Assembly: GCA_944371905.1 (NCBI GenBank)
Contig: CALVYA010000002.1
Location: 17,303-81,302, forward strand
DNA: 64,000 nt
Origin: an uncultured Bacilli bacterium
Lineage (GTDB): Bacteria > Bacillota_I > Bacilli_A > RF39 > UBA660
Direction: 5' to 3'
Shown: positions 44,064-60,806 of the stretch, piece by piece
How the letters are laid out: the number at the start of each line of letters is the position of its first letter
Numbering within the stretch: the first letter of the stretch is position 1
Notes under the pieces: model-generated
Database searches by the model: none
Told to the model about the DNA's origin: nothing
The model's input: the letters and a program-made list of their open reading frames with translations, nothing else
Position numbers and translations under genes: made by a program

Positions 44064-44284
44064 ATGAGAAGAAAAATAATTACTATTGCAGCAATTTTAA
44101 TTATTTTTGTTTTAGCTTCTGCCGTATTATTCAATGCTTTCAAAAAAGAAGAAGAAAATGGACTAACCAAAGTAAAAGTAGCAGAAGTTACTCACAGTAT
44201 TTTCTATGCCCCACAATATGCTGCTATTGCTTTAGGATACTTTGAAGATTATGGAATCGATATCGAGTTAACTTTAGTACCAGG
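44064..44284 (+). pseudogene. ABC substrate-binding protein gene, segment A (codons 1-74)
   Basis: Signal-anchor followed by KVKVAEVTHSIFYAPQYAAIALGYFEDYGIDIELTLVPG (NMT1/THI5-type, COG0715-like). The reading frame runs into element 1 and stops after 5 foreign codons. Confidence 0.85.
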
Positions 44285-44288
44285 TGCT

Positions 44289-44307
44289 ACTAATCTAAAA
44301 AGATAGC
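44289..44307. repeat. left terminal inverted repeat of element 1
   Basis: actaatctaaaaagatagc is the reverse complement (18/19) of 47381-47399. Confidence 0.9.
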
Positions 44308-44308
44308 A

Positions 44309-45709
44309 TCATAATTTAGAAAAATTATAAATAATTTTGATTTGCTTATTTCTACTAATTGTAATTTTATTAATTAAAGAGAATAATAATTCTCTCGTTA
44401 TATAAATATTATCATAAACATTGTTGGTTGACAATTGATTCAGCTTTTTTAACTCTTGTTGTAATTCTTCTCGTTTTAATAAATAAGTTTCTACGTCAAT
44501 AATTTCATTAAGCCTATCTTCATATAAATACTTTAATTTTTTTTCTATTTTTTGTATATCTTGATTATTATTAATATTTCTTTGCTTTAATAATTGGTTA
44601 TTGATTATGAAAGATAAAAAGTTATTGATTCTATTCAAAACAAATTCTTCTAATTTTTGATAATTTATATAATGAGAAGTACAATTACTAGAATTATTTC
44701 GATAGGTATTGCAAGTCATAATATATTGTTTTCTTTTATTGGAATAACTAACCCCTAATAGACTACCACATTCCAAACAATAAACTAAACCTTCTAATAA
44801 TAACTTATTTCGAATAATATGATGTCCTTTTTTTCTTTTTCTAGATTGAATAATTTCAAATAATTCCTCACTAATGATTTTTTCTTGGGTATTATTTATT
44901 ACTACCCATTCTTGCTGATTCCTTTTTATTCTTGTTTTATTTTTATAACTAACATTTGTCCATACATTACTAACTAGGCATCCCGTGTATTCCTTATTAT
45001 TTAAAATATTATATATACTAGAAGCAGTCCATTTTTGATTGGTGGGAGATAAAATATTTTGATTATTTAATTTAATCGCAATCTCTTTATTACTTTTGCC
45101 ATGAAAAGATAAGGAAAAAATTTGTTTAACAATATTAGCTTTATCTTGATCAATAATTAATTTATTTTTATTATTAGGATCTTTTACATAGCCATATGGT
45201 GCTCTACTTCCCAAAAATAATCCTTGTTCTTTCTTAGTTTTCAAAATTGATTTTATTTTTTTAGAAGTATCTTTAGAAACCATATCATTAAACAACGCTT
45301 TAAAGGGTGCTATATCATTATTACCAGTATCATAATAAGTATCAATTCCATCTAAAATTGAAACATATCTAATTTTATTGGTCGGGAAATAATTTTCCAC
45401 ATAATACCCTGTTTTAATATAATCTCTTCCTAACCTAGATAGATCTTTAGTTATAACCATATTTATTTTATTATTTTTTATATCATGTAATAATTGATTA
45501 AAAGCAGGTCTATTAAAATTAGTTCCTGAATAACCATCATCTACATACTCTTTTATCGAACTTAAATTGTGCTCTTTTAGATATCGATAAATCAATTTCC
45601 TTTGATTTTTTATACTCTCACTTTCTTTATTTTTTTCTTTAAATAAATCCTCCTTAGATAACCTAATATAAACTCCTACTTTAAAATTACAATTATTCAT
45701 CATAATCAC
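44309..45709 (-). CDS. large serine recombinase 1
   Basis: N-terminal resolvase domain (VGVYIRLSKED...DDGYSGTNFNRPAF...ITKDLSRLGRD), a recombinase domain and a Cys-rich zinc-ribbon region plus coiled coil. The tracked start is a GTG and two ATGs follow within 4 codons. Confidence 0.9.
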   Translation of the reverse strand: MIMMNNCNFKVGVYIRLSKEDLFKEKNKESESIKNQRKLIYRYLKEHNLSSIKEYVDDGYSGTNFNRPAFNQLLHDIKNNKINMVITKDLSRLGRDYIKTGYYVENYFPTNKIRYVSILDGIDTYYDTGNNDIAPFKALFNDMVSKDTSKKIKSILKTKKEQGLFLGSRAPYGYVKDPNNKNKLIIDQDKANIVKQIFSLSFHGKSNKEIAIKLNNQNILSPTNQKWTASSIYNILNNKEYTGCLVSNVWTNVSYKNKTRIKRNQQEWVVINNTQEKIISEELFEIIQSRKRKKGHHIIRNKLLLEGLVYCLECGSLLGVSYSNKRKQYIMTCNTYRNNSSNCTSHYINYQKLEEFVLNRINNFLSFIINNQLLKQRNINNNQDIQKIEKKLKYLYEDRLNEIIDVETYLLKREELQQELKKLNQLSTNNVYDNIYITRELLFSLINKITISRNKQIKIIYNFSKL

Positions 45710-45785
45710 ATTCTTGCCAATAAGTTTTTAAAATCTCTATAATATCCATATTTCCATATTCTTCAATGATTATATAATCTTTCAT
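45693..45785 (-). CDS. 30-aa acidic mini-ORF upstream of recombinase 1 (candidate accessory or directionality factor)
   Basis: Hand translation: MKDYIIIEEYGNMDIIEILKTYWQECDYDE*. It overlaps the recombinase start. The same arrangement occurs in elements 2 and 3. Confidence 0.4.
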   Translation of the reverse strand: MKDYIIIEEYGNMDIIEILKTYWQECDYDE

Positions 45786-45817
45786 ATTATCAACTCAATA
45801 AAAAATATGCAAAAAAA

Positions 45818-45842
45818 ATATTATTAGAATTTCTAATAATAT
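45818..45842 (-). terminator. terminator between the cargo operon and the recombinase operon of element 1
   Basis: atattattagaa/ttctaataatat palindrome followed by T8 on the minus strand. Confidence 0.55.
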
Positions 45843-46720
45843 TAAGCTTCGTTTTTATTAAATTTATTTCGGAGCATAAAATAATAGATAATCTGAATAG
45901 TACCTATTAATAAAACCACTAAACCATAATTAACAAAAGTACCAAAAATATTTTCTTTTACCAACTGAATCGTTGCTGTTGAATATTCTTCTTCTAAAAT
46001 TAATTTCATAGCAACATTCCCTAATCCGCCAAGAGAGGCAAATACTCCACCAGCTAAAACTGTTGTTACTCCTGTCCAAATAGCAAAACGATAAATTGAC
46101 CATCTAACAATAGCTATGATAGCAATAACTATGATAATCATTACGAATAATACTATTTTAGAACTATCTCCAAGTAAAACGCGAATCACATTCATATCTT
46201 CTTCGTTTATTTCATTCTTCATCTCATCATATGTCGGGAACATATTAGATATTTCGGAAGAATTTTCTTCCACTTCTACTAAGATATTATCATGTTGTTC
46301 TTCCGTTAAAGTGATGCCTAATTCTTGAGCAGTTCGATCTAAAACTTCATCAACTGTTTGTACTATTTTATCAGCTGTAATAATTATTCCTTCTTGTCCA
46401 CTTGATAAATAATGAGCAACATCTCCATAATACTCACTAATTAATGCTTTAAATTCATTAGAATTAATAATTCCATCCACTATTTGGCGATCTATATTAT
46501 TATTATCAGCAATAGTATATAATCTATCCAAACTATCACTATCATTAGTGGTTAAAATTTCTTTCATATCCATATCATTAACAATTGTTGATACATTATC
46601 TTTGCTAATTAATTTAGGACCAATTAATAATCCAATATACATACATATCATTATAAATAATACAAAGCATAAAAATAAACTAACGATTTTTGATATTACA
46701 TCTAACCCTTTATTTTTCAT
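45842..46720 (-). CDS. hypothetical membrane protein (292 aa)
   Basis: One N-terminal TM helix, a soluble acidic domain and 3-4 C-terminal TM helices. It overlaps the upstream acyltransferase gene by 11 nt. Confidence 0.6.
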   Translation of the reverse strand: MKNKGLDVISKIVSLFLCFVLFIMICMYIGLLIGPKLISKDNVSTIVNDMDMKEILTTNDSDSLDRLYTIADNNNIDRQIVDGIINSNEFKALISEYYGDVAHYLSSGQEGIIITADKIVQTVDEVLDRTAQELGITLTEEQHDNILVEVEENSSEISNMFPTYDEMKNEINEEDMNVIRVLLGDSSKIVLFVMIIIVIAIIAIVRWSIYRFAIWTGVTTVLAGGVFASLGGLGNVAMKLILEEEYSTATIQLVKENIFGTFVNYGLVVLLIGTIQIIYYFMLRNKFNKNEA

Positions 46721-47324
46721 TTTGATTCTCCTTTTCTTTTCTATTATTAATAATTAATGTTTTGACCTTATCCATTAATTCATTATTAGCTTCTTCCAAA
46801 GAATTTGTTTTTATTTTATACGGTTTCCCAAAACAAATAGTAATTTGATTTTTCCTAAAAATTTTATATTTACCAGTAATAGAAAATGGCACTATAGTAC
46901 TATTGGTTTTTGAAGCCATAGATACTGCACCAAACTTAAATGGCATAATAACATCCTTCGTTCTATTGAATGTGCCTTCAGGAAAAATACCAATTAATTT
47001 TTGATCTTTTAATACTTTAATAGCTTTTTTCAAGGCTTCATGATCCTTTTGTCTCCTATTAACAGGAATGCAAGCCATGGCTTTAAAAAAAGGGGTTCCC
47101 AGACCTTTAAACAGTTCATCTTTTGCTAAAAAATGAATTGTTCTTTTTGTAGTACAAAACAATAAAGGAATATCCAAAATATTAGTATGATTTCCACAGA
47201 TTACAACAGAACCTTTTTTAGGAATATTTTCATTACCTATGATAGTAGGACGATACACAACTCTAAATAATCCATTGACAATTGGTCTTAAAATTCTATA
47301 TAGTATAGCATCTTTTTTTTCCAC
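46710..47324 (-). CDS. 1-acyl-sn-glycerol-3-phosphate acyltransferase family (PlsC-like)
   Basis: HX4D motif (NHTNILD) and FPEGT motif. Confidence 0.8.
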   Translation of the reverse strand: MEKKDAILYRILRPIVNGLFRVVYRPTIIGNENIPKKGSVVICGNHTNILDIPLLFCTTKRTIHFLAKDELFKGLGTPFFKAMACIPVNRRQKDHEALKKAIKVLKDQKLIGIFPEGTFNRTKDVIMPFKFGAVSMASKTNSTIVPFSITGKYKIFRKNQITICFGKPYKIKTNSLEEANNELMDKVKTLIINNRKEKENQNEK

Positions 47325-47380
47325 ATCTACACCTCTATTAATGATTACATTTATATTATAACACGTTATATTAATTATTT

Positions 47381-47399
47381 GCTATCTTTTTAAATTAGT
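47381..47399. repeat. right terminal inverted repeat of element 1
   Basis: gctatctttttaaattagt. See 44289-44307. Confidence 0.9.
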
Positions 47400-47405
47400 A
47401 GCAGG

Positions 47406-47627
47406 TGCTGATAAAGTAGCAGCAGCAATATTATCAGGTGATATGGATATTGCTTTCTGTGGTAGTGAAGCAACAATATATGTTTACAATGGTGGAGAAA
47501 AAGACTATTTAAAAACTTTTGCCCAATTAACACAAAAAGATGGAAGTTTTCTAGTTTCTAGAGAAAAAATTGACAATTTTACTTTAGATGATCTACGTGG
47601 TAAATATGTAATTGGAGGTCGTGCTGC
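47406..47627 (+). pseudogene. ABC substrate-binding protein gene, segment B (74 codons)
   Basis: ..ADKVAAAILSGDMDIAFCGSEATIYVYNGGEKDYLKTFAQLTQKDGSFLVSREKIDNFTLDDLRGKYVIGGRA. It is in frame with segment A once element 1 is removed. Confidence 0.85.
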
Positions 47628-47661
47628 CCTTCGGTTTTTATATGATAATTTTTTTAAGCAC

Positions 47662-49254
47662 TTAATCGGTGCTTAGCTCATTTATTAATAAATTAGGGTC
47701 TTTAATTTTATAATTTATTGTTATTTCTTTATTTTGTGTAATCATTATACTATCTATAATACAAGCAATTAAGTTTTTACTTGGTTTTCTTAATCTTAAA
47801 AATTCTTTAACTATACTTGTATAATCATTATTAGGCTTCATTTTGTTTTCTATTATCTCAAGTTGTGTTTCTAATTCTTTTAATTTTAATTGATTACTTA
47901 ATATATCGTTTATTATTTGATTATTAAAGTCTTTGTATTCTTCAAGTGTAATTACCTCATCTATTTTATCAAAGTAGATTTTATTTTTTCTTTTATTAAG
48001 TTTTTCTATTTCTAGATTACAAGAATTAATTTCTCCTTTTATTTTTTCTTTAACTTTGTTTCTTTTAGAAGCGTTTTTTAGTAGATTTTCAAAGTTAGTA
48101 CTATCCACATACTTCTTACACATTTCTCTTATTTCCCTTAATACTTCTTTTTCCAATTTTTGATAATTCATGGTATGAGGAGTACATACCTTAAACTTAC
48201 TATGCTTTTGATAATATGTACACCCTGTATATGCTCTATCTTCTGTTCTTTTTGATATTGAAATAGAGTGTCCGCATTCACTACAATATAAAAAGCCTCT
48301 TAACAAATAATTTGTTGAGTTATTTTGCTGATGTTTGTTCTTTTTATAGACTTGTTGTACTATATCAAACATTTCTTTATCTATTATAGGCTCATGTGTA
48401 TTTTCTATAACAATCCAACTAGATTTAGGAGTTCTTATTTCTTTTTTTATCTTATAATTAATAGTTTTTCTTCTTCCTTGACATAGATTTCCTATATATG
48501 TAGGATTACATAACATTTCATCTATTGTTCTTGAACACCACAAACCATAAGAAGAAGATTTAACACCACGATTTAAATTAGCATATACACTAGGTATTGG
48601 AATACCCTCTTTAGATAAAGTATCTGCTATCACTTTACAACTCATACCATCATAAGCCATTTTAAATATTCTTCTAACTATTGGCGCTACTTCTTCATCT
48701 ATAACTAATTTATATCTATCATTTTCATCTAGTTTATAACCATATACTGCTTTCCAACCAAGAAACTTGCCTTCTTCTTTTTTACTTCTTAAACTTCTTC
48801 GTACTTTTTTTGAAGTGTCTTTTGCATATTGGTCATTAAAAACTGCTTTAAATGGTGCTATATCATTACTGACACTATCTAGGTATGTATCTATATCATC
48901 TAATATGGCAATATATCTTACATTATGTTGTGGAAAGTATTTTTCCATATATTCCCCAGCTTTGATGTAATCTCTACCAAGTCTAGAATAGTCTTTTGTG
49001 ATAACACAATTTATTTTTCCACTTTCTATATCTCTTATCATTCTATTAAAAGAAGGTCTATCGAATGTAGTTCCACTTACACCATCATCTACATATTCAT
49101 CATATATTTTAAAGTTTTCTTTTTGCTTGTTAATGTAATCTAGTATTATATTTCTTTGATTCGAGATACTTTCACTCTCTATTTTATTTTTATCTTCATC
49201 TTCTCTTGATAAACGAATATAAGAACCAACATTATATATTTTATCTTGTTCCAT
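47662..49254 (-). CDS. large serine recombinase 2 (paralog of recombinase 1)
   Basis: VGSYIRLSREDEDK...DDGVSGTTFDRPSF...ITKDYSRLGRDYIKAG. The start was chosen at MEQDK after a ggagg RBS. It is collinear with recombinase 1. Confidence 0.9.
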   Translation of the reverse strand: MEQDKIYNVGSYIRLSREDEDKNKIESESISNQRNIILDYINKQKENFKIYDEYVDDGVSGTTFDRPSFNRMIRDIESGKINCVITKDYSRLGRDYIKAGEYMEKYFPQHNVRYIAILDDIDTYLDSVSNDIAPFKAVFNDQYAKDTSKKVRRSLRSKKEEGKFLGWKAVYGYKLDENDRYKLVIDEEVAPIVRRIFKMAYDGMSCKVIADTLSKEGIPIPSVYANLNRGVKSSSYGLWCSRTIDEMLCNPTYIGNLCQGRRKTINYKIKKEIRTPKSSWIVIENTHEPIIDKEMFDIVQQVYKKNKHQQNNSTNYLLRGFLYCSECGHSISISKRTEDRAYTGCTYYQKHSKFKVCTPHTMNYQKLEKEVLREIREMCKKYVDSTNFENLLKNASKRNKVKEKIKGEINSCNLEIEKLNKRKNKIYFDKIDEVITLEEYKDFNNQIINDILSNQLKLKELETQLEIIENKMKPNNDYTSIVKEFLRLRKPSKNLIACIIDSIMITQNKEITINYKIKDPNLLINELSTD

Positions 49255-49324
49255 TTTACCTCCAATCCAAAGTAAAATATATATGTTTATTAACACATAT
49301 ATTATACCATTTTTATCCTTATTT

Positions 49325-49441
49325 TTAAAGGCTTTGTGATATTTCTAACTCATAAAATTCGTAGTAATATTCGAGTAAAAATTTTTCTATTATTTCTTGT
49401 AAATCTTTACCATCTTTATTAAAAGTACTTGTTATTTTCAT
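49325..49441 (-). CDS. 38-aa mini-ORF upstream of recombinase 2
   Basis: Hand translation: MKITSTFNKDGKDLQEIIEKFLLEYYYEFYELEISQSL*. It is co-directional and acidic. The EIIEKFLLEY stretch loosely resembles DIIEILKTYW of mini-ORF 1. Confidence 0.4.
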   Translation of the reverse strand: MKITSTFNKDGKDLQEIIEKFLLEYYYEFYELEISQSL

Positions 49442-49737
49442 AAATTCACCTATTTAAACTTATGCCGACATAAATTGTTTTATTAAATCCTTTCTTTGCT
49501 TAAGCAACTTTAGAATACCAATAATCAAAAAATCTTTCTTTTACAAAAAACAAAATAAAGTGTTATATTTTTACAAAATTAAAACCTTTATTTTATAAGG
49601 GCTAAAGGTACTTTTACAACCGATTTTTCGAGTAGAAAGTCAGTTTTTAGACATATTTTAATATTAAAAAAACTTTGTTAAGATGAAATCACAAGAGCAA
49701 GGAACCAACTCTTGAAAATATGAAAGGAGAATAAAAG

Positions 49738-49965
49738 ATGGTAGTAGATGATTATAAAATTAAGTTAGAAATCATAAAACTTTCTATTATGAAACACACA
49801 GGAAGAGAAATCAGCGAAGAACTATTGAATAAGTTTTGTAAATATTTAACTATGGAATATGAAAATAATTCATCTAAAAATAGTATTGATAATCGTATCA
49901 ATAGTATTTGTAGAACTATTACTATAAAATACGATAAATATATGAGAATTATCAATGCTAACTAA
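49738..49965 (+). CDS. hypothetical protein (75 aa)
   Basis: Good RBS (gaaaggag). No motif recognised. Confidence 0.5.
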   Translation: MVVDDYKIKLEIIKLSIMKHTGREISEELLNKFCKYLTMEYENNSSKNSIDNRINSICRTITIKYDKYMRIINAN

Positions 49966-50056
49966 TTTAAGTTTATTTAAACCCAAATAAACTTAATTAA
50001 ACTTATAAATAAGTCATTTAGGATAAATGCTTATTGCTTTGTATTATATTTCCTTA

Positions 50057-50082
50057 AAAGTGATAAAAAATATCACTTTTTT
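50057..50082 (+). terminator. rho-independent terminator
   Basis: aaaagtgata/tatcactttt stem followed by a T-run. Confidence 0.6.
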
Positions 50083-50145
50083 CGTTTTAGGGGCAGACAA
50101 GAGGTTCCAACAAACTATATAATACATAGCCAAGGAGATGAAATT

Positions 50146-51300
50146 ATGGGAAAAAAACATAGAACTTTAAATGATACTATCTTTAGAAATAGTAAATATA
50201 TAGAGGTGGTAAATAAACAAGTCGGTTGTGATGACTTTAAAAAAGAGTGCCAAAATCCTAATTCTCAATATAAGGGTCAATATGATTTTATGTTGGAAAC
50301 TTTTAAAACTCTTATTTCACTTTATAATTGTTTTTATAGTGATAGCAACTTATCATTTCTTGAAAAAGTAGAAAATGCTATAAATATTATGGAAGAATAC
50401 ATTTATAAAGATTACGAAGTTGATAAGAAAAAATATAGTGTTAGATTTATTCAAAGTGTGAGTGATAAATATAGCACATATCTATATAGAAAAATAAGTA
50501 ATGATGAAACAGGTTGGTATGTTATATTAGATGATATAGATTCTAAAGAAATAAATACCTCTCCCATAGCTAAAAATGTTATAAAAGAAATTGAAGAAGA
50601 AATGACAAAACTTGAAAATATAGGCTTTGATGATATGGTCAAAGGCTCTATTGCTTATAAAAAAAATAAAGATAGTGATTACAAAATCTATATAAGTAAG
50701 TTTGACAGTTTAAATACAAAGCAAGAACAATTTATAGAGGAATTTAGTACTAAATACAACGAAAGCCATATAACTCCCTTAAATGATAATGAACTGACTA
50801 ATATAGCCTTAATTTATAACCTTGTAGCAAAAGTTAATAATGGCATAGTAAAAGTTCTTTCAAACAAACCAAATAAAAACTATAACTTAAATGAAAGGTC
50901 AACCCCTAGCAACTATTACAAGGCTTATCTTGATAGTTTAAATATTAGTATTGATGATAGTTTCTTTACACTTAATGCTAATGCTTTTATGATGAATGTA
51001 ATTATCACTTATTCTAATTCTTGCGGAGCAAAAGGCTTATCTCTAAATGATATGATAAATAATTTTGATATGTATTACTTTCTTGATAAAATAGAAAATT
51101 CCGTAGTCAAAAAAAATCTTTCAGTTAGTGATGAAAGAATACAAAAAATAATTTTAGACTTGAAACAAATTTATAACATTATTACAACAAAAAATAATGG
51201 ACTTGATGAATTATTTAATAATTTTAAAAGAGCCAATGAAATAATACTAAATATTATGAGCCGAGATAATAACTTAAATTATTATATAAGAGTTAGTTAG
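50146..51300 (+). CDS. hypothetical protein (384 aa), unknown-function cargo
   Basis: RBS aaggag. No Walker, nuclease, HEPN or other motif is visible. It is translationally close (8 nt) to the next gene. Confidence 0.6.
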   Translation: MGKKHRTLNDTIFRNSKYIEVVNKQVGCDDFKKECQNPNSQYKGQYDFMLETFKTLISLYNCFYSDSNLSFLEKVENAINIMEEYIYKDYEVDKKKYSVRFIQSVSDKYSTYLYRKISNDETGWYVILDDIDSKEINTSPIAKNVIKEIEEEMTKLENIGFDDMVKGSIAYKKNKDSDYKIYISKFDSLNTKQEQFIEEFSTKYNESHITPLNDNELTNIALIYNLVAKVNNGIVKVLSNKPNKNYNLNERSTPSNYYKAYLDSLNISIDDSFFTLNANAFMMNVIITYSNSCGAKGLSLNDMINNFDMYYFLDKIENSVVKKNLSVSDERIQKIILDLKQIYNIITTKNNGLDELFNNFKRANEIILNIMSRDNNLNYYIRVS

Positions 51301-54476: not shown

Positions 54477-55274
54477 ATGTATAGCATATATCAAAATAGA
54501 TATGCCAATAAATTACACTTAAATATTATAAAAGTTAAATATTCAAAGGAACATACCTTACTTGAAAGAGATTTTAGCATTAAATTAAGTGATGATTACA
54601 ACGATTTAGCAAACGACTTAATAACATACAAATTATATCTTTATTTAGGTAGTTTACTAAGTCAAAATGCTTTAAGAAATGAAATACTAACACTTGATAC
54701 AAAAGCCTTTCTAAATGCCTTAAAAACAACTAAAAAGGCTTATATTATATCATCGCTTGAATATTTAAAAGCCATAAGGTTTAAATACTACTATTTTAAA
54801 GGTAAGAAGAACAACAAAGGCTATATCAAAGAAATAAGAAATTGTAGTATTATTGATGATTATTCTTCTTCAAAAGGTAGTATAACAATTAGATTTAATA
54901 AAGATTATTTAACCTTACTTGGTTATAGTAGATTAACCTTACAACTACCTAACGAGCTATTTACTATGAATATAACAAAATATCATCATAGTTTATTTAT
55001 GGGAGTTCGTATCTTATTACATAGACAAGTGAATTTTAATAAGAAACAAAGAAATGTTATATCAGTAAAAGAAATAACAAAATATTGTCCTTTACTCCCT
55101 TGTTATGATGATTTAAACGAAAGTAAGCAAGTATCAAGAAATATATTAGAGCCATTTAAAAAAAATATGGACTTTATGTGGGAAATACTTAATTTTACTT
55201 GGAAGTATGAAAATGAGCTAACTACATATAACTCATTTATAAATAATAAAATAATCTTTGAGTGTAGAAATTAG
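54477..55274 (+). CDS. putative replication initiator (Rep-like, winged-helix)
   Basis: The call rests on its position directly upstream of a DnaB-C-like ATPase and an AT-rich palindromic region, plus general resemblance to RepB/Rep_3-type proteins. It is weak. Confidence 0.35.
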   Translation: MYSIYQNRYANKLHLNIIKVKYSKEHTLLERDFSIKLSDDYNDLANDLITYKLYLYLGSLLSQNALRNEILTLDTKAFLNALKTTKKAYIISSLEYLKAIRFKYYYFKGKKNNKGYIKEIRNCSIIDDYSSSKGSITIRFNKDYLTLLGYSRLTLQLPNELFTMNITKYHHSLFMGVRILLHRQVNFNKKQRNVISVKEITKYCPLLPCYDDLNESKQVSRNILEPFKKNMDFMWEILNFTWKYENELTTYNSFINNKIIFECRN

Positions 55275-55390
55275 AGCAAAGTTTAGCAGATTTTGAGTTT
55301 TGATATGTAGATGACATTTGTTAGAAACACTTATAAATCAATACTTTTTGAGATGTTTATTTCCTTAAATATAATAAGTATATTATATAT

Positions 55391-55417
55391 AGCACTCACT
55401 CTTTAAAGAGTGGTGCT
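55391..55417. promoter_or_regulatory. 27-nt palindrome followed by a (TA)n tract: candidate origin or terminator
   Basis: agcactcactcttt/aaagagtggtgct, then tatatatatata. It lies in the 265-bp gap between the Rep-like and helicase-like genes. Confidence 0.35.
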
Positions 55418-55540
55418 TATATATATATAACTTAATTTTTACAATAAAAAAAAACTATAAAACTCATATAGAGTATATTATATTCTACTTATAATAGTAA
55501 GAACAATATATGTATATAAAAATTTTAGAAGGAGAAAAAA

Positions 55541-56368
55541 ATGCTGACTATAGATGAATATAAAAACTATATAACTAATGAAAACAATGTAAGAAAAATA
55601 CCAACTAACTTTAGCAAATTAGATAATATATATGGTGGAGGTTTATCAAAAGGACTAACCATTATTGGTGCTAACACTGGCTTAGGCAAAACAACTTTTG
55701 TCTTACAACTTGCTGATAATGTAGCACAACAACCTAACACAAAAGTTTTATTCTTTTCTATGGAATTAACTAAATATGAGTTGGTGTCAAAGTCTTTAAG
55801 CCGATTATCTTATTTAGATAACAACTTAACTAATCATACACCTAATGATTTTATAAGTAATGGTGTTGATGATTTGGATACTTATTATAGTCATTATGAG
55901 CCAATGGGAAATAATGTTTATATAGTTGATAATATTAGAAGTATTATGAAAATATCTAAAACTATTTACGACTTTTGTAATGAGTTTGAAAATGACAAAG
56001 TTGTTGTTATTATTGATTACATACAATTTATAAATTGTAATGGAAGCAACGATAAGCAAAATGTTGATATAATCACACGAGAACTTAAAGCACTTGCCAA
56101 TAATTACAATATACCTATTGTGGCAATTAGTAGTTTAAGTCGTGAGGGTGCTAAAAGAAATGATATATCATCATTTAAGGAAAGTGGTTCAATAGAATAT
56201 ACCGCTGATTATTTAATTATTATGTATCAAAAGCAAAATAATAGAGAGTTGGCTTTTACTGATGATACTGATACTATAACAGTTCAGTTTCTAAAAAATA
56301 GATTTGGAGTAAAAGGACAATTTGATTTAAAGTATATTGGAAATTATGCAACATTTAAGGAACTTTAA
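55541..56368 (+). CDS. DnaB-helicase C-terminal-domain-like (RecA-fold) ATPase
   Basis: Walker A GANTGLGKTT, Walker B VVVIIDYIQ, ...ISSLSREG... Confidence 0.75.
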   Translation: MLTIDEYKNYITNENNVRKIPTNFSKLDNIYGGGLSKGLTIIGANTGLGKTTFVLQLADNVAQQPNTKVLFFSMELTKYELVSKSLSRLSYLDNNLTNHTPNDFISNGVDDLDTYYSHYEPMGNNVYIVDNIRSIMKISKTIYDFCNEFENDKVVVIIDYIQFINCNGSNDKQNVDIITRELKALANNYNIPIVAISSLSREGAKRNDISSFKESGSIEYTADYLIIMYQKQNNRELAFTDDTDTITVQFLKNRFGVKGQFDLKYIGNYATFKEL

Positions 56369-56385
56369 CGAGTTCCTTTTATTTT
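56357..56385 (+). terminator. terminator overlapping the ATPase stop
   Basis: aaggaact/agttcctt stem followed by ttatttt. Confidence 0.5.
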
Positions 56386-56491
56386 GGGAAAATATTTTAG
56401 TCGTTTAATTTTAGGGCAACCCATTGATATAAAAAAAGTAGTAGAAAAAGTTATTTAACTTAGCCCCTACTACAAGGAGGAATAAAAAATT

Positions 56492-56677
56492 ATGAAACAA
56501 AGATTTTTAACACTTGTAGAGGTATGTGATAGCCTACATACTTCTATTGGGTATATAAAGAAACTAATTGATGAGGGAAAAATTAAGGCTATTAAATCAT
56601 CAAAAAATTACTTAATTAGTGAGTTTGAATATTTAAAACTAATTGAGTTTATGGAGGTACAGCATAATGAAAAATAA
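56492..56677 (+). CDS. excisionase-family HTH protein
   Basis: FLTLVEVCDSLHTSIGYIKKLIDEGKIKAIK. Confidence 0.6.
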   Translation: MKQRFLTLVEVCDSLHTSIGYIKKLIDEGKIKAIKSSKNYLISEFEYLKLIEFMEVQHNEK

Positions 56678-56975
56678 TAAAATAAGTATAGATTTAGATA
56701 TTGAGGACTTATTAGGTATTAAGGAAACAAGCAAAGATAGTTTAGAATATGATTTAGAGTTTATAATCAATAATGGTTATGATGAATATATCAAGCAACA
56801 AGAAGAACACAACAAAAAGAAACAAGAATTTATAGAACTATTTAAAGAGTGTTATGATGAGTTATGCATTTTTATGGAAAAAGACCCTAAACAAAGAGTT
56901 GCTATATCTTGCTTTACTTGTATCAAAGGTATGGACTTATCTAAACAATATGGTAAGCCAAAAAAAGATAAGTAG
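56667..56975 (+). CDS. hypothetical protein (102 aa)
   Basis: The start was chosen at MKNNKISIDL after a ggagg RBS. No motif recognised. Confidence 0.5.
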   Translation: MKNNKISIDLDIEDLLGIKETSKDSLEYDLEFIINNGYDEYIKQQEEHNKKKQEFIELFKECYDELCIFMEKDPKQRVAISCFTCIKGMDLSKQYGKPKKDK

Positions 56976-57005
56976 TTAAATGATAACTTGCTTATCTTTC
57001 TTTTT

Positions 57006-57254
57006 TTATTGTTTCATTATTTCATTATAGAGTATTATTTGTTTCTTATTGTTCTTTTGAAACTCCCTTCTAAAATCTTTTTGTAATTTTTCAAAATGAT
57101 TATATAAAAGTCCTCTTTCTTTATCAGTAAACTTACTATCTTCTTTTAGGCTTTCTTCTAACATTTGATGAACTACTAGCATTTCTATCATTGTATTATT
57201 CATTTTTTCAGTTAAGTTAAATCTTAACTCATTTATATTTGTACACTTTTTCAT
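57006..57254 (-). CDS. hypothetical coiled-coil protein (82 aa)
   Basis: The internal ATG (MKKCTNINELRF) has an agagg RBS. The longer tracked ORF runs into the element end and is unlikely. Confidence 0.45.
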   Translation of the reverse strand: MKKCTNINELRFNLTEKMNNTMIEMLVVHQMLEESLKEDSKFTDKERGLLYNHFEKLQKDFRREFQKNNKKQIILYNEIMKQ

Positions 57255-57411
57255 TTTATACCTCTTTCTTATAATTAGATTTGTTAATAAACACATAATT
57301 TTACCCTTATTGTACCTTGATTTTTTATATTTGTTATCACTATTAACCCAAAGGGGGGGTCGGTGTATCGGTAGTAACATTTTTTTAGTTATCACTTTTG
57401 ATGAGAAAAGC

Positions 57412-57558
57412 CGGAATGCCCGAAATGACCTTTGAATGGGCCTTAAGAGAAGCAGGCATTGATCCCAAAAATGATTTAACTATTGATACTAGTATTGAAT
57501 TTGCTTCTATGGGAGGAGCATTTATTAGTGGTATTGGAGATTTTGTTACTTTATTTGA
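57412..57558 (+). pseudogene. ABC substrate-binding protein gene, segment C (49 codons)
   Basis: ..GMPEMTFEWALREAGIDPKNDLTIDTSIEFASMGGAFISGIGDFVTLFE. It is in frame with segment B after removal of element 2. Confidence 0.85.
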
Positions 57559-57625
57559 ACAAAGTGTTACAAAAAATAATATTCATAAAAAAAGATTTAA
57601 CCATACGATTAAATCGAATTTTTGT

Positions 57626-58546
57626 TTATCCCATAATTTCTCCACCATTATTATGAATAATTTGACCCGTCATATAACTAGAATCATCAGAAGCTAAAAA
57701 CACAAAAGTTGGTGCTAATTCATATGGCATTGCTCCTCTTGCCATCGCTGCATTGGCCCCTAAAGATGGAATTTTTTCCTTTACCCAACAAGCAGGTTGT
57801 AACGGTGTCCAAAAAAATCCCGGTGCGATAGCATTAACTCTTATTCCTTTTAATGCTAAATTTCTAGCTAAAGCTCTAGTAAAGCCAACTATAGCCCCTT
57901 TAGTAGTAACATAATCTATTAATTGTGGATCACCATAAAAAGTGGTCACAGACGTTAAATTTATAATTGAAGATCCTTTTTTCAAATAAGGTAATGCCTC
58001 TCTAGTTAAGTAAAACATTCCATAAATATTGACTTTCATAGTCCAATCAAATTGTTCATCTGTAATATCTTCTAATTTATCTTGCTGATACTGTACTCCT
58101 GCATTATTCACTAAAATATCTATTTTTCCAAATTTATCTAATGTTTTCTTTACGATTTCTTTTGCAAATCTTTTATCAGCAATATTCCCAGATAATAATA
58201 AACATTCCCCTCCTAGAGCTTCTATATATTCTTGTGTTTCCTTAGCATCTATGTGTTCATTATAATATGGAATCACTACTTTAGCTCCTTCTTTGATAAA
58301 AGCTACTGCACAAGCTCTACCTAGTCCACTATCCCCTCCTGTGATAATTGCTACTTTATCTTTTAATTTTCCACTTCCCTTATAATTAGGATTATCAAAA
58401 ATAGGTCTAGGATGCATTAAATATTCCATTCCTGGTTGCTGAGTTTGAGATTGTTCTGGTGCCATAATTAAATATTTTGTGCTTTCTATTCCTAAAGGAT
58501 CATAATAATTATAGAACTTATTTCCGAAATGATAATCGTAATTCAT
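57626..58546 (-). CDS. SDR oxidoreductase of the YhdF/YdaD (general-stress-protein-39-like) type
   Basis: A long N-terminal leader (..QPGMEYLMHPRPIF..YKGSGKLKDKVAIITGGDSGLGRA), NNAG, and an active-site Y/K motif (Y..TKGA). Confidence 0.8.
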   Translation of the reverse strand: MNYDYHFGNKFYNYYDPLGIESTKYLIMAPEQSQTQQPGMEYLMHPRPIFDNPNYKGSGKLKDKVAIITGGDSGLGRACAVAFIKEGAKVVIPYYNEHIDAKETQEYIEALGGECLLLSGNIADKRFAKEIVKKTLDKFGKIDILVNNAGVQYQQDKLEDITDEQFDWTMKVNIYGMFYLTREALPYLKKGSSIINLTSVTTFYGDPQLIDYVTTKGAIVGFTRALARNLALKGIRVNAIAPGFFWTPLQPACWVKEKIPSLGANAAMARGAMPYELAPTFVFLASDDSSYMTGQIIHNNGGEIMG

Positions 58547-58595
58547 ATATATACCTCCTATGTACTATATGCAATTAAACAAACAATGATATTAT

Positions 58596-60185
58596 TTAGC
58601 TATAAAAATAATACTTAACAGAAAAATGAACATTACCATTTCTTTGATTAAAGAGATAATTCTTTTGTAAAAATAATGTTAACTGATTTCTGGAAGAATT
58701 TTTTGAGAATGATAAATAAATCGTTAACTGAATATTTTTTTTATCATGATTTTGCTTGGCAACTACAATTTTTTCTAATAAGTTTTGAATAATGTAATCT
58801 CTTACTTTTTCTTGATTTAATTTAGTAAAGATGATGTCTTTTAAATTACTTTCTATTTCATATTTATTAGAATAACTCAAAGAAGTTTGTGTTTGACTTA
58901 TCTTAGGATGATATTCTACATCTTTCTTTAATAACAACTTCCTTTTTTGGTCTTTCAAACTTTTCACTTTACATAGTGATTTTTTAAATTTATTATAATT
59001 AGCAAATAAGATATCAAATACTTCTTTAGTATTTATATGCATTTGTAATAGTAAATCATTAAAAATAAAATTTAAATTTTTTTCTTTAATTATAGGAGAA
59101 TCACAACTTTTTTTACCATTTTTCAAATATTCAGAACAAATCCATACAACTTCATTATGATTTAACTTTCTTCTATGAAAAACACAATTATGATAACAGC
59201 AATATATCTTAGCACTATAATTGTATCTTAAATGATATATTGTTTTTTCACTTTTTCTTTTTCTAAAAGCCTGCTTTCTAATTAGTAGTCTTTGATTAGC
59301 GAGTTCCCATATTTTTTCACTAATAATTGGTGGAATTTTTTTGGTATCTTTATAAATAATCCACTTATCTTTTTCAATATTCTTTACTTTTTTAGTCATA
59401 TAATCTACTATTTCTGTTCTATTAGCACAATAGTAACCTTTATACTTTGGATTAGAAATCATTCTAGATAAAGTAGTAACACTCCAATTATTTTGAGTAG
59501 AAGTCCTAATATTTTGATTATTTAAAATCTTAACAATCTGTGATAAGGATCTTTTGTCAACTATATACATTCGATAGATTTCTCTTATGATTTTAGCCTG
59601 TCTTTCTATGATTTTTAAATTACCGGTATCTTTATCTTTTTTATATCCATATAAAAGGTCATTACCTAAAATTTCTCCTCTTCTAATAGCTCTTTTCATT
59701 CCAAATTTCACTCTTTCCGATAAACGTCTTATCTCATCTTGCGCCATAGAAGCCATAATAGTTAATCGTAATTCAGAATCCGGCAATGCTGTATTAATAT
59801 TATCATTAACAAATAGAACTGCTACTCCATCGTTCAAAAGTTCTCTTGTGTATTTGATGCTATCTAAAGTATTTCTTGAAAATCTGGAAATCTCCTTAGT
59901 AACAATTAGATCGAATTTATGACGTTTAGCATCCTCGATCATTTGCATAAAGTTTTCTCTTTTTATATCACTTGTACCACTAATACCATCATCTATATAT
60001 CCATCAATATACGTCCAATTACTATTTTGTTTTATAAATTGCTCAAAATATTCCTGTTGATTTTTTAAAGATTTTTGTTGTTCTAAATGATCAGTAGAAA
60101 CTCTCGAGTAGTAAGTAACTCGCAAATTAATGTTAGTAATAGGAATTCCCATATTTAATTGATTCCTAACATAATATAAGTCCAA
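58596..60185 (-). CDS. large serine recombinase 3 (a different subfamily from 1 and 2)
   Basis: VTYYSRVSTD...DDGISGTS..R..F..M....KFDLIVTKEISRFSRNT, plus a recombinase domain and a Cys-rich region. The start is ambiguous (TTG at 60185 or ATG at 60152). Confidence 0.88.
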   Translation of the reverse strand: MDLYYVRNQLNMGIPITNINLRVTYYSRVSTDHLEQQKSLKNQQEYFEQFIKQNSNWTYIDGYIDDGISGTSDIKRENFMQMIEDAKRHKFDLIVTKEISRFSRNTLDSIKYTRELLNDGVAVLFVNDNINTALPDSELRLTIMASMAQDEIRRLSERVKFGMKRAIRRGEILGNDLLYGYKKDKDTGNLKIIERQAKIIREIYRMYIVDKRSLSQIVKILNNQNIRTSTQNNWSVTTLSRMISNPKYKGYYCANRTEIVDYMTKKVKNIEKDKWIIYKDTKKIPPIISEKIWELANQRLLIRKQAFRKRKSEKTIYHLRYNYSAKIYCCYHNCVFHRRKLNHNEVVWICSEYLKNGKKSCDSPIIKEKNLNFIFNDLLLQMHINTKEVFDILFANYNKFKKSLCKVKSLKDQKRKLLLKKDVEYHPKISQTQTSLSYSNKYEIESNLKDIIFTKLNQEKVRDYIIQNLLEKIVVAKQNHDKKNIQLTIYLSFSKNSSRNQLTLFLQKNYLFNQRNGNVHFSVKYYFYS

Positions 60186-60186
60186 A

Positions 60187-60339
60187 TTAATTACCTTCTT
60201 TGCTATATGTTAATTTATATAATTGTTTTAAAATATTTTCCTCTGTGCTTCTAAATATTTTATATGTAATTAAATCATCATCAAATAATTCTTTATTAAT
60301 AGAAAGAGCTAATTCCAAAATTAATTTATTATAATTCAT
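60187..60339 (-). CDS. 50-aa mini-ORF upstream of recombinase 3
   Basis: Hand translation: MNYNKLILELALSINKELFDDDLITYKIFRSTEENILKQLYKLTYSKEGN*. Its stop abuts the recombinase start. Confidence 0.4.
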   Translation of the reverse strand: MNYNKLILELALSINKELFDDDLITYKIFRSTEENILKQLYKLTYSKEGN

Positions 60340-60403
60340 GTATATCCCTCATTTAAATCTATGATTTAACATACTTTTTATTTCCTATTGTTACATTAAG
60401 TGA

Positions 60404-60806
60404 ACCTACTGCATTAGAAATGGAACAACAAGGATATGGGTATGTTGTGGCATCTATTGGAGAGTTAGGAGGAATTGTGCCTTATACTTCTTACAGTGCT
60501 AGAATTAGTTATATCGAAAATAATAAAGAAGTAATTGATAATTTCACTAAAGCCATTCAAAAAGGTTTAGATTTTGTTCACAAAAATGACAGTGAAACAA
60601 TAGCAGAAACTATTTTGAGTTTTTTCCCTGATACTTCGTTAAATGATATAACTAATGTAGTAGAACGATACAAAGCACAAGATACCTGGCCTAAAACTAC
60701 TAATTTTACTAAAGAATCATTTGATCACTTACAAACTATTATGATAGCTAATGGTGCTATTGAAGAACCGGTTGATTATAATTCATTAATTTATACAAAG
60801 GATTAA
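60404..60806 (+). pseudogene. ABC substrate-binding protein gene, segment D (133 codons plus stop)
   Basis: PTALEMEQQGYGYVVASIGELGGIVPYTSYSARISYIENNKEV... The four segments total 993 nt (330 aa), a normal size for this family. Confidence 0.85.

What the first reader, a model, noticed from the sequence alone, without database searches (positions are those of the whole stretch)
44064..60806. One ABC substrate-binding-protein gene is split into four in-frame pieces by three different serine-recombinase elements
The plus strand carries four collinear, non-overlapping segments of one NMT1/THI5-type SBP: 44064-44284, 47406-47627, 57412-57558 and 60404-60806. They sum to exactly 993 nt (330 codons plus stop). 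Deleting the three intervening blocks (3121, 9784 and 2845 bp) at short direct cores (caggtgct, gcc, tgaac) restores one continuous frame: ..LTLVPGADKVAAAIL.., ..VIGGRAAGMPEMTF.., ..VTLFEPTALEMEQQ... Each block encodes its own large serine recombinase. The transporter ATPase and permease genes follow intact but now lie about 16 kb from the operon promoter. Three independent site-specific elements in one 1-kb gene is far beyond chance. It resembles developmentally excised intervening elements: skin-type elements in sporulation genes of Bacilli and Clostridia, and interruption elements in cyanobacterial nif genes. This window also has a CotD-like coat gene, so the host probably sporulates. I do not know of a transporter gene carrying a triple interruption of this kind.
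Basis: partly seen in the sequence, partly recalled or inferred. Interest (0 to 1): 0.92.

Follow-up and report, generated by a model that had tools for sequence, protein, structure and literature searches.

The report
Transporter gene split by three recombinase elements
One transporter gene of an uncultured gut bacterium is cut into four pieces by three separate mobile DNA elements yet still evolves as a working gene, and the same operon is interrupted in about a third of related species, which points to programmed cut-out-and-rejoin of the kind known from spore-forming bacteria.

Summary
Four plus-strand segments join into a 993-nt ORF. Its 330-aa product aligns end to end, without gaps, with uninterrupted 330-aa homologues. 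Each of the three inserts (3121, 9784 and 2845 bp) carries its own large serine recombinase (LSR).

It is not an assembly artefact: many independent assemblies show the same arrangement.

The pattern extends beyond this window. In 80 related species the same SBP-ATPase-permease operon is interrupted in 22, and probably 30, at recurring sites inside invariant motifs. LSRs cluster by site.

The split genes are not decaying. dN/dS is 0.07 for both flanks of element A, which is fixed in two sister species.

The operon promoter, conserved in 74 species, fits the published sigma-K consensus (AC-N16-CATATAAT) and lacks sigma-A hallmarks. B. subtilis ytlA-C-D and a C. difficile ytlC homologue, the same kind of importer, are sigma-K dependent.

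Best reading: these are skin/SPbeta/gin-type gene-intervening elements removed by precise excision, probably in the sporulating mother cell. Excision itself, its timing and the host's ability to sporulate were not shown.

The parts
44011..44037 (+). Operon promoter, sigma-K type: AC - 16 nt - CGTATAATA, ending 27 nt before the start codon
   Evidence: The motif is conserved in 74 related species: C of AC in 59/74, the -10 TATA.TA in 70-74/74, no TTG at -35 and no TGn. It matches the published sigma-K consensus. It is distinct from neighbouring sigma-A-type promoters. A sigma-70 scan also scores it 10/12.
44064..44284 (+). SBP gene fragment 1 (codons 1-74, signal/anchor region)
   Evidence: dN/dS is 0.067 against the sister species, which also carries A.
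44285..47405 (.). Element A (3121 bp). attP is a 23/24 palindrome around a central GG. The element is fixed in this species and the sister species and is present at the identical nucleotide position in L010 and L023.
44309..45709 (-). LSR-A (464-466 aa)
   Evidence: Pfam Resolvase, Recombinase and Zn_ribbon_recom. The N-terminal domain is closest to TnpX, 2mhc, at 4e-24. dN/dS is 0.19 against the sister species.
45693..45785 (-). Conserved 30-aa ORF overlapping the LSR-A start (MKDYIIIEEYGNMDIIEILKTYWQECDYDE). Candidate directionality factor or regulator.
   Evidence: It is conserved in L108 and L010. dN/dS is 0.16 (only 30 codons). Its function is inferred only.
45842..46720 (-). Element A cargo: fast-evolving 292-aa protein of unknown family
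   Evidence: No Pfam, NCBIfam or PHROG hit. It is syntenic in L005, L010, L023 and L108.
46710..47324 (-). Element A cargo: PlsC-like acyltransferase behind an extended -10 sigma-A-type promoter (TGTTATAAT) next to attR
   Evidence: dN/dS is 0.06-0.09.
47406..47627 (+). SBP gene fragment 2 (codons 74-148)
47628..57411 (.). Element B (9784 bp): integrative element without phage structural genes, polymorphic between strains
   Evidence: It is precisely absent in L091, L095, L099, L100 and L102.
47662..49296 (-). LSR-B (530-544 aa), 40% identical to LSR-A, behind a TGGTATAAT extended -10
49325..49441 (-). 38-aa ORF upstream of LSR-B, with an NKDGK...EII motif shared with the small ORF of the L029 element
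52083..52340 (-). Element B HTH repressor-like gene
52892..54111 (+). Element B TM2/zinc-ribbon protein and Ltp-type surface lipoprotein
55541..56368 (+). Element B DnaB-like helicase (replication module)
57412..57558 (+). SBP gene fragment 3 (codons 148-197)
57559..60403 (.). Element C (2845 bp): present in every sampled contig of this species, absent from the sister species
   Evidence: Two contigs end at its right junction (L085 at -1, L089 at +27).
57626..58546 (-). Element C cargo: short-chain dehydrogenase (PRK06701-type SDR)
58596..60185 (-). LSR-C (529 aa), 26% identical to LSR-A and LSR-B
   Evidence: The closest PDB entry is 3g13, a conjugative-transposon recombinase, at 5e-39. The exact protein occurs on 17 contigs.
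60187..60339 (-). 50-aa ORF immediately upstream of LSR-C; candidate cofactor
   Evidence: No family hit.
60404..60806 (+). SBP gene fragment 4 (codons 197-330 plus stop)
60808..61563 (+). ABC ATPase (NitT/TauT type, ytlC-like), intact
   Evidence: dN/dS is 0.024. The orthologue is split at codon ~138, ~160 or ~191 in other species.
61547..62338 (+). ABC permease (ytlD-like), intact
   Evidence: dN/dS is 0.072. The orthologue is broken at codon ~207 in other species.

Best explanation
Three unrelated or distantly related integrative elements, each with its own large serine recombinase and att sites, have inserted one after another into the substrate-binding-protein gene of a ytlA-ytlC-ytlD-like ABC importer operon. 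The host is an uncultured, low-GC gut Bacilli lineage. Element A is old: it is fixed here and in the sister species, and it occupies the same site in two further species. Element C came later and is in every sampled genome of this species. Element B is the newest and is present in only some strains. Each recombinase targets DNA that encodes an invariant peptide block. The gene is not dead. Each element is removed by precise recombination between its attL and attR, which rebuilds the 330-codon frame. The operon is then read from its sigma-K-type promoter. The most likely setting is the terminally differentiating mother cell during sporulation, as for skin/sigK, SPbeta/spsM and gin/gerE. In that setting the germ-line (spore) copy keeps all three elements. 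Shown here: the anatomy, the att sites, natural empty sites for B and C, recurrence across species, purifying selection on the interrupted gene, and the promoter class. Inferred: that excision happens, that it is needed for function, and that it is tied to sporulation.
For: 1. Exact in-frame reconstruction, with end-to-end alignment to uninterrupted homologues.
2. LSR hallmarks. All three proteins have the three LSR domains. The attP of A is a 23/24 palindrome around GG, and attB resembles attP near the core. The B-less strains are joined precisely at the GCC core and carry the predicted junction verbatim.
3. Selection. The window and the sister species both carry A, and every one of 11 sister-species protein variants starts after site A. 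No uninterrupted allele of 90% identity or more exists among 5.8 billion protein clusters. Yet the C-terminal part has dN/dS 0.071 at dS 0.43, and the orphan N-terminal 73 codons have 0.067 at dS 0.445. This equals the intact ATPase (0.024), permease (0.072) and PcrA (~0.06). The copies of A have diverged about as much as the hosts (dS 0.8-1.06), which fits co-inheritance.
4. The same operon is interrupted in 22 of 80 related species, plus 8 contigs that end exactly at the recurrent sites. Six split ATPase genes rebuild to intact 249-251-aa proteins with LSGGMRQR and VTHD restored. LSRs cluster by site. 13 of 14 LSR genes in these loci lie inside the operon, which makes up about 16% of the DNA. 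By my calculation the binomial P is about 5e-10.
5. Promoter. AC-N16-[C/A][A/G]TATAATA is conserved in 74 species. It equals the published sigma-K consensus '-10 CATATAAT, -35 AC' (PMC3789822). 0/55 SBP promoters have TTG or TGn, against 71/152 neighbouring promoters. AC at -35 occurs in 44/55 against 12/152.
6. ytlA, ytlC and ytlD are sigma-K-regulon core sporulation genes (PMC3416734). C. difficile CD1927 'ytlC' is sigma-K dependent.
7. RF39 is predicted to be capable of sporulation (PMC10868615).
8. Precedent: LSR elements in mother-cell genes, including small non-phage ones.
Against: No excised form was seen. No attP junction and no A-empty site of this species appears in any locus fetched, in viral contigs or in JGI metagenome contigs.

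No sigma-E/K-type promoter was found in front of the LSR genes or small ORFs. LSR-B and the acyltransferase have sigma-A extended -10 promoters.

No recognisable RDF is present, only small conserved ORFs of unknown function.

Sporulation of this organism is not established. The CotD hit (E = 0.0044) and the GerS hit (below cut-off) are weak. No sporulation gene lies in the flanks. The assignment of this lineage to RF39 rests on my own knowledge of GTDB names, not on a test.

Orthology to B. subtilis YtlA/C/D was not tested. Only family, gene order and promoter type agree.

The window's own -10 reads CGTATAATA (G at position 2), and a sigma-70 scan also scores the site 10/12.

Some relatives look degraded. 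L023 has a C-terminally truncated LSR-A. In L047, L059 and L060 a truncated ATPase is followed by housekeeping genes. L108 has a frameshift in the SBP gene.

Independent insertion of diverged A variants into both sister species cannot be excluded. That would weaken the dN/dS argument.
Confidence: 0.55

Rival explanations
1. Reversible or stochastic switch in growing cells, not tied to sporulation. The elements excise and re-integrate at low frequency, or in response to a signal such as nutrient limitation. The transporter then behaves as a phase-variable or 'active lysogeny'-type function, and selection acts on the revertant subpopulation.
For: This reading uses the same anatomy and the same purifying selection. 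LSR-A and LSR-B are closest to TnpX. From my own knowledge, TnpX catalyses both excision and insertion without a separate RDF. The LSR genes appear to have sigma-A-like promoters. No mother-cell promoter was found inside the elements. B is polymorphic between strains, and contig ends at the C junction hint at mixed populations.
Against: The operon promoter belongs to a class distinct from sigma-A promoters and fits sigma-K. The homologous transporter is sigma-K dependent in two model spore formers. In dividing cells an excised non-replicating circle is easily lost, yet A and C are fixed in all sampled genomes.
Confidence: 0.25
2. Plain insertional inactivation at a hot-spot target gene. LSR elements converge on this operon as they do on comM because its conserved motifs give reliable attB sites and its loss is tolerated in the gut. 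The transporter is simply off, and the fragments look intact only because the insertions are recent.
For: Distantly related LSRs are known to converge on the same target genes (PMC10083194). The sites lie in the most conserved motif-coding DNA. Once A had broken the gene, further hits (C, B) would be cost-free. Some lineages show decay: L047/L059/L060, the L023 LSR, and the L108 frameshift.
Against: dN/dS is about 0.07 on both flanks of A over dS of about 0.44, in two species where A is fixed. All six two-sided ATPase splits and their downstream permeases are intact. The promoter is conserved in interrupted lineages. LSR-A itself is under purifying selection (0.19). 30 of 80 species carrying a dead but undecayed operon is unlikely.
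Confidence: 0.15
3. Assembly or binning artefact: chimeric joins of mobile elements with fragments of paralogous SBP genes.
For: The window comes from a metagenome assembly. Some contigs end at junctions.
Against: The same junctions appear at 99.5-100% identity in more than 20 contigs from different assemblers and sample series. The fragments are collinear, non-overlapping and sum to one orthologue. Site A is reproduced in three other species.
Confidence: 0.01

Closest known systems
Sporulation gene-intervening elements of Bacilli and Clostridia: skin in sigK; SPbeta in spsM; gin in gerE; vfbin in spoVFB; vrin in spoVR; yin in yabG (PMC4191935, PMC5025042, PMC5595907, PMC5499854, PMC10747680)
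   Same: An element with its own large serine recombinase sits inside the coding sequence of a gene read from a mother-cell (sigma-K-type) promoter. Short cores flank the element and precise excision restores the frame. Elements range from prophage-like to small non-phage ones. They persist for long periods while the interrupted gene stays intact.
   Different: The target is an ABC importer operon (ytlACD-like), which I did not find reported as a target. There are three elements in one 1-kb gene, and at least seven recurrent sites in one 2.5-kb operon across about a third of the species of a clade. The hosts are uncultured, reduced-genome gut Bacilli. No sporulation-controlled RDF or recombinase promoter could be recognised. 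Excision was not demonstrated.
Interruption elements in heterocyst genes of cyanobacteria (nifD, fdxN, hupL; surveys in PMC4874684; Calothrix NIES-4101 nifBHDK in 13 parts, PMC11249958)
   Same: Several elements can interrupt one gene or operon. Some minimal elements carry little more than the recombinase, as does the 1.9-kb L004 insert. Recombinases cluster by insertion site. Excision occurs in a terminally differentiated cell.
   Different: The phylum and the differentiation programme differ. The cyanobacterial elements use both tyrosine and serine recombinases. Here all recombinases found are large serine recombinases.
Tn4451/Tn4453-type LSR elements (TnpX) and other small integrative mobilisable elements of Clostridia
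   Same: These are small cargo-carrying elements moved by an LSR. The catalytic domains of LSR-A and LSR-B are closest to TnpX among solved structures.
   Different: Elements A and C have no mobilisation gene. They use a single conserved target site rather than relaxed GA-centred targets. No DUF4368 domain is present.
LSR target-gene hot spots such as comM (Durrant et al. 2022, PMC10083194)
   Same: Many divergent LSRs converge on one conserved host gene.
   Different: Here different LSR lineages use different sites within one operon, several can co-reside, and the interrupted gene remains under purifying selection.

Membership tests
Large serine recombinase (LSR) integrases | N-terminal resolvase catalytic domain, then a Recombinase domain, then a zinc-ribbon domain | tested here: met
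   Pfam PF00239, PF07508 and PF13408 match all three proteins. A YIRLS(K/R)ED serine motif is visible in LSR-A and LSR-B.
Large serine recombinase (LSR) integrases | Short att sites with imperfect inverted repeats around a central crossover dinucleotide, and only a few bases of identity between attP and attB | tested here: met
   attP of A is a 23/24 palindrome around GG. B and C are weaker at 13/24 and 15/24. The cores are 8, 3 and 5 nt.
Sporulation gene-intervening elements (skin/SPbeta/gin type) | The element interrupts the coding sequence of a mother-cell-expressed sporulation gene | tested here: inconclusive
   The promoter fits the sigma-K consensus and differs from sigma-A promoters. 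ytlA/C/D and CD1927 are sigma-K dependent. Orthology and expression were not tested.
Sporulation gene-intervening elements (skin/SPbeta/gin type) | The element encodes the recombinase that excises it | tested here: met
   There is one LSR per element, placed next to an element end. Activity was not tested.
Sporulation gene-intervening elements (skin/SPbeta/gin type) | Precise excision restores an intact functional gene | tested here: inconclusive
   In silico restoration is exact. A natural precise empty site exists for B. dN/dS of 0.07 implies function. No excision product was observed for A or C in this species.
Sporulation gene-intervening elements (skin/SPbeta/gin type) | Excision is specific to sporulation and to the mother cell | not testable with these tools
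   This needs stage-resolved DNA or reads from the organism.
Sporulation gene-intervening elements (skin/SPbeta/gin type) | A recombination directionality factor under developmental control | tested here: inconclusive
   Conserved small ORFs of 30, 38 and 50 aa precede each LSR. No sigma-E/K-like promoter lies before them, and they match no known family.
Sporulation gene-intervening elements (skin/SPbeta/gin type) | The host forms endospores | tested here: inconclusive
   RF39 is predicted to sporulate. The window holds only weak CotD-like and GerS-like hits and a CtpB-type protease.
B. subtilis YtlA-YtlC-YtlD importer (orthology) | NMT1-type SBP, NitT/TauT-type ATPase and permease in that gene order, under sigma-K control | tested here: inconclusive
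   Family and gene order agree, and the promoter is sigma-K-like. No B. subtilis sequence was available for a reciprocal comparison.
Prophage / active lysogeny switch | The element is a (defective) prophage with phage structural or lysis genes | tested here: not met
   PHROGs and Pfam find only an HTH repressor, a DnaB-like helicase, and Ltp and TM2 proteins in B. Nothing phage-like is in A or C. There are no relatives in viral contigs.
Tn4451/TnpX-type transposons | TnpX-like LSR plus a mobilisation gene, with multiple GA-centred targets | tested here: not met
   The catalytic domain resembles TnpX. No mob gene is present. A single conserved site is used in four genomes.

The most novel reading that the evidence does not exclude
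A whole radiation of orthogonal serine-recombinase elements has colonised one late-sporulation transporter operon of an uncultured gut lineage. They use at least seven fixed sites, with up to three elements per gene. All are maintained by programmed excision in the mother cell, so rebuilding one gene needs three independent recombinase/att (and possibly mini-RDF) systems firing in the same cell. This would be the densest set of developmental DNA rearrangements known in Firmicutes. It would also be the first genomic sign that these never-cultured, reduced-genome bacteria run a sigma-K sporulation programme.
Probability: 0.35. Interest if true: 0.85.

Novelty: new variant of a known kind. Interest (0 to 1): 0.72.

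Why it matters
If the elements are excised on cue, several things follow.

1. Developmental gene rearrangement, so far documented in cultured Bacillus and Clostridium species, would extend to an uncultured, reduced-genome gut lineage. That would give a DNA-level marker of sporulation there: attB and attP junction reads.

2. It would show that one operon can act as a shared 'safe harbour' for a diversifying family of mobile elements, with site partitioning between recombinase lineages.

3. It would provide a natural set of mutually orthogonal LSR/attP/attB triplets, with candidate very small cofactors, that work side by side within 1 kb. That is attractive for genome engineering.

4. It would focus attention on the unknown function of the YtlACD-type importer in spore formation.

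Even if excision proves not to be developmental, the hot-spot pattern matters. About a third of species carry an interruption at recurring sites, and the genes stay intact. This needs to be known when annotating these MAGs, where the operon is currently called as fragments.

Tried and rejected
- Rfam scan of the whole window, looking for example for a THI riboswitch upstream of an NMT1/THI5-type gene: no hit.
- Exact look-ups of LSR-A and LSR-B using the GTG-start ORFs: not on record because gene callers chose other start codons. Solved by using neighbouring ORFs.
- Viral contigs: no attP of B and no relative of LSR-B.
- The single metagenome scan, with a degenerate pattern covering attL, attR, attB and attP of A: 11 chance matches in unrelated DNA, none from this lineage.
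- The sigma-K -10 motif alone is not enriched in the window. The relaxed full motif occurs at the chance rate: 27 observed against 27.8 expected. Only 3 matches lie in promoter position: the SBP gene, the CotD-like gene and the DnaB-like gene.
- Strict-motif scan of 1.33 Mb of related loci, to find other candidate sigma-K genes: all 26 promoter-positioned matches are the SBP gene itself. This gave no independent regulon evidence.
- Scan for sigma-E/K-like promoters before small ORFs inside the elements: none.
- Search for sporulation genes beyond the window edges on the same contig: none.
- Literature check of the RF39 assignment of the CAG-710-type genomes: not found.
- Thiamine-precursor or sulfonate transporter identity of the SBP: only weak subfamily-level hits (SsuA_fam at 54 bits against a cut-off of 163). 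The substrate is left unknown.
- PDB: only distant SBP relatives.

Full report
OBSERVATION

Joined, they give a 993-nt ORF encoding 330 aa without stops. The product matches Pfam NMT1 (1.2e-19) and NMT1_2. It aligns over its full length to many uninterrupted proteins of exactly 330 aa, the best at 87% identity, with no gap at any of the three joins.

The joins fall after the second base of codons 74, 148 and 197. Each lies inside an invariant peptide block: PGADKV, GGRxxGMPEMTFEW and GDFVTLFEP.

The three inserts each encode a complete large serine recombinase (LSR) on the minus strand, with Resolvase, Recombinase and Zn_ribbon_recom domains.
- A: 3121 bp.
- B: 9784 bp.
- C: 2845 bp.

LSR-A and LSR-B are 40% identical. 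LSR-C is 26% identical to both. The rest of the window has no other LSR. The ATPase and permease genes that follow are intact.

ELEMENT ANATOMY

Joining the right and left ends of A gives an attP that is a 23/24 palindrome around a central GG. The attB half-sites resemble it near the core. B and C have the weaker symmetry usual for LSR sites.

Element A carries:
- LSR-A.
- A conserved 30-aa ORF overlapping the LSR start.
- A fast-evolving 292-aa protein without family hits.
- A PlsC-like acyltransferase behind an extended -10 promoter.

Element C carries a 50-aa ORF, LSR-C and an SDR oxidoreductase.

Element B carries LSR-B (behind TGGTATAAT), a 38-aa ORF, an HTH repressor, TM2 and Ltp surface proteins and a DnaB-like helicase. 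It has no phage structural genes.

Among solved structures, the catalytic domains of LSR-A and LSR-B are closest to TnpX. LSR-C is closest to a conjugative-transposon recombinase. SPbeta SprA is only a weak match to LSR-C.

NOT AN ARTEFACT, AND POLYMORPHIC

A 97.7-kb ENA scaffold is 100% identical to the window. More than 20 further contigs from other samples and assemblers reproduce the junctions.

Strains 99.2-99.7% identical to the window carry A and C but lack B. Most are joined precisely at the GCC core.

A sister species (94% SBP identity; L005, L108) carries only A, and sites B and C are empty there. All 11 protein variants of that species in the collection begin just after site A. No uninterrupted allele of 90% identity or more exists in the 5.8-billion-cluster protein collection.

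The inferred history is therefore:
- A is oldest. It is fixed in both species and sits at the identical nucleotide position in two further species, L010 and L023.
- C is fixed in this species.
- B is recent.

Two contigs end at the right junction of C, as expected if C-empty molecules coexist in those samples. This is only a hint.

THE WIDER PATTERN

I compared the operon with 80 species-representative genomes of the same uncultured Bacilli clade. Their record titles read 'Bacilli', 'Tenericutes', 'Mollicutes', Clostridium sp. CAG:710, Mycoplasma sp. CAG:877 and similar. The tally:
- 43 have an intact operon.
- 22 have a definite interruption.
- 8 more have contigs that stop exactly at a recurrent site.

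The recurrent sites are SBP codon 74; ATPase codons ~138 (LSGGMRQR|V), ~160 (Walker B) and ~191 (VTHD|L); and permease codon ~207. Adding the window's SBP codons 148 and 197 gives seven.

Inserts range from 1.9 kb (an LSR gene only, L004) to more than 7 kb. One carries a type-IV coupling protein. All six ATPase splits that have both halves in view rebuild to intact 249-251-aa proteins.

LSRs cluster by site. LSR-B is related to the site-74 and site-138 groups at 31-47% identity.

Of 14 LSR genes in these loci, 13 lie inside operon interruptions, although the operon is about 16% of the DNA. By my calculation the binomial P is about 5e-10.

Some lineages look degraded:
- L023 has a truncated LSR-A.
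- In L047, L059 and L060 a truncated ATPase is followed by housekeeping genes.
- One sister-species contig has a frameshift in the SBP gene.

IS THE GENE ALIVE?

Between the window and the sister species, both carrying A, dN/dS values are as follows.
- The 256 codons downstream of A: 0.071 at dS 0.43.
- The 73 orphan codons upstream of A: 0.067 at dS 0.445.

These equal the values for the intact ATPase (0.024), permease (0.072) and PcrA (~0.06). Among the more distant A-bearers, the N-terminal piece has dN/dS of 0.13-0.20, the same as against an uninterrupted relative.

The A copies themselves have diverged about as much as the hosts (dS 0.8-1.06). LSR-A is constrained at 0.19.

A gene that had been dead since before the species split would drift towards dN/dS = 1. 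The simplest reading is that the full-length protein is still made, which requires removal of the elements. The caveat is that independent recent insertion of already diverged A variants into both species cannot be excluded.

WHEN WOULD EXCISION HAPPEN?

Upstream of the SBP start, 74 species share a promoter. It has a near-invariant AC, then a 16-nt spacer, then [C/A][A/G]TATAATA. There is no TTG at -35 and no TGn.

The published sigma-K consensus in C. difficile is '-10 CATATAAT, -35 AC'. Sigma-E differs by having ATA at -35.

I compared the SBP promoters with neighbouring genes that have a TATAAT upstream:
- Sigma-A hallmarks: 0/55 SBP promoters against 71/152 neighbours.
- AC at the sigma-K -35 position: 44/55 against 12/152.

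The strict motif occurs in promoter position only before the SBP genes in 1.33 Mb of related loci.

In B. subtilis, ytlA (an SBP), ytlC (ATPase) and ytlD (permease) form an importer of unknown function. They are sigma-K-regulon genes on a core sporulation list. The C. difficile ytlC homologue is sigma-K dependent. The order RF39, to which I believe these genomes belong (my own knowledge, not verified here), is predicted to be capable of sporulation.

This fits the known class of LSR elements that interrupt mother-cell genes and are excised there: skin, SPbeta, gin, vfbin and vrin.

WEAKNESSES

- No excised form was found.
- No sigma-E/K-like promoter or known RDF lies inside the elements.
- The window's own -10 has G at position 2, and a sigma-70 scan scores the site 10/12.
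- Sporulation of this host is not shown. The CotD-like hit is sub-threshold, although that gene carries an AC-N16-AATATCATA motif 23 nt upstream. The GerS-like hit is below its cut-off.
- Orthology to YtlACD was not tested.

RIVALS

- A vegetative, reversible switch fits the TnpX-like recombinases and the sigma-A-like LSR promoters, but not the promoter class of the operon.
- Plain inactivation at an LSR hot spot, as for comM, fits the motif targeting and the few degraded loci. It does not fit the selection data or the intactness across species.
- An assembly artefact is excluded for practical purposes.

NOVELTY

The kind is known: LSR gene-intervening elements. Multiple interruption is also known, in cyanobacterial nif genes (PMC4874684, PMC11249958). 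What is new:
- The target, an ABC importer operon. I found no report of it.
- The host clade.
- Three co-resident elements in a 1-kb gene.
- The clade-wide, site-partitioned colonisation of one operon.
- The small conserved ORFs that precede the recombinase genes.

Noticed in passing
window 38313-38339 (-) and gene 37943-38290 (-): The weak CotD-like gene (Pfam E = 0.0044, below cut-off) has an AC-N16-AATATCATA motif 23 nt before its start. It is one of only three promoter-positioned matches to the relaxed sigma-K pattern in the window. The other two are the SBP gene and the DnaB-like gene of element B.
   Followed up: partly
window 34091-35347 (-) and 36069-37103 (-): There is an S41 protease with a CtpB-type N-terminal domain and a lipoprotein with weak similarity to the germination lipoprotein GerS (4e-11, below cut-off). 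These are possible but unproven sporulation or germination genes near the operon.
   Followed up: partly
window 27219-33344 (-) and 33361-33906 (-): A 2041-aa ORF sits directly next to a protein with a phage baseplate Gp10 C-terminal domain. This could be a large surface or tail-fibre-like protein pair. I did not examine it.
   Followed up: no
window 47325-47405 (-) compared with 44028-44063 (+): The leader of the element A acyltransferase (TATAATATAAATGTAATCATTAATAGAGG) resembles the leader of the SBP gene (TATAATACATTGTAATTATTAAAGGAGG). Its TGTTATAAT promoter lies just inside the attR arm.
   Followed up: no
window 45693-45785 (-), 49325-49441 (-), 60187-60339 (-); L010, L108, L029: Every LSR gene here is preceded by a small ORF of 30, 38 or 50 aa. 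The A-type peptide is conserved in three species (Y-[ILV]3-EEYG-[ND]-x-DI...K-x-Y). The B peptide shares NKDGK...EII with the one before the permease-site LSR of L029. They might be miniature directionality factors or leader peptides.
   Followed up: partly
window 53842-53924 and 53983-54065: An 83-bp internal direct repeat (94% identity) lies inside the Ltp-type lipoprotein gene of element B. It corresponds to the two Ltp domains.
   Followed up: no
window 56237-56270; L083, L097: Some strains have a small indel variant inside the DnaB-like helicase gene of element B, giving a 238-aa product instead of 275 aa. Several contigs break there.
   Followed up: no
L108 (sister species, sample ERZ28614620): This contig carries element A, an apparent frameshift at SBP codon ~235, and a break of the ATPase at codon 160. 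It comes from a sample that also holds the window's species. It could be a decaying allele or an assembly error.
   Followed up: partly
L047, L059, L060: The ATPase stops at about residue 195 (the H-loop site) and is followed by phosphoglucomutase and phosphoglucose isomerase genes, with no permease within 9 kb. This could be a rearrangement or loss at a former insertion site, or a very large 'element'.
   Followed up: partly
L025 6632-7993 (-): The insert at ATPase codon ~138 in this species carries a type-IV secretion coupling protein. Conjugative elements therefore use the same site as the small LSR elements.
   Followed up: no
L102 (Logan ERR12528342) compared with window 41485-47628: This B-less strain is only 96.4% identical across PcrA to element A but 99.6% identical across element C. 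This suggests recombination between strains around the locus.
   Followed up: no
literature: PMC10294663, Table 1: ytlC (K02049) is listed among sporulation genes 'enriched in phages of spore-forming gut hosts'. If prophage calls include split ytlC fragments at their borders, that enrichment could be a footprint of the insertion hot spot described here.
   Followed up: no
window 18352-20147 (-): Three consecutive ORFs of about 150-160 aa lie downstream of the ribosomal protein cluster. One has DUF5071 and the others have no family hit.
   Followed up: no
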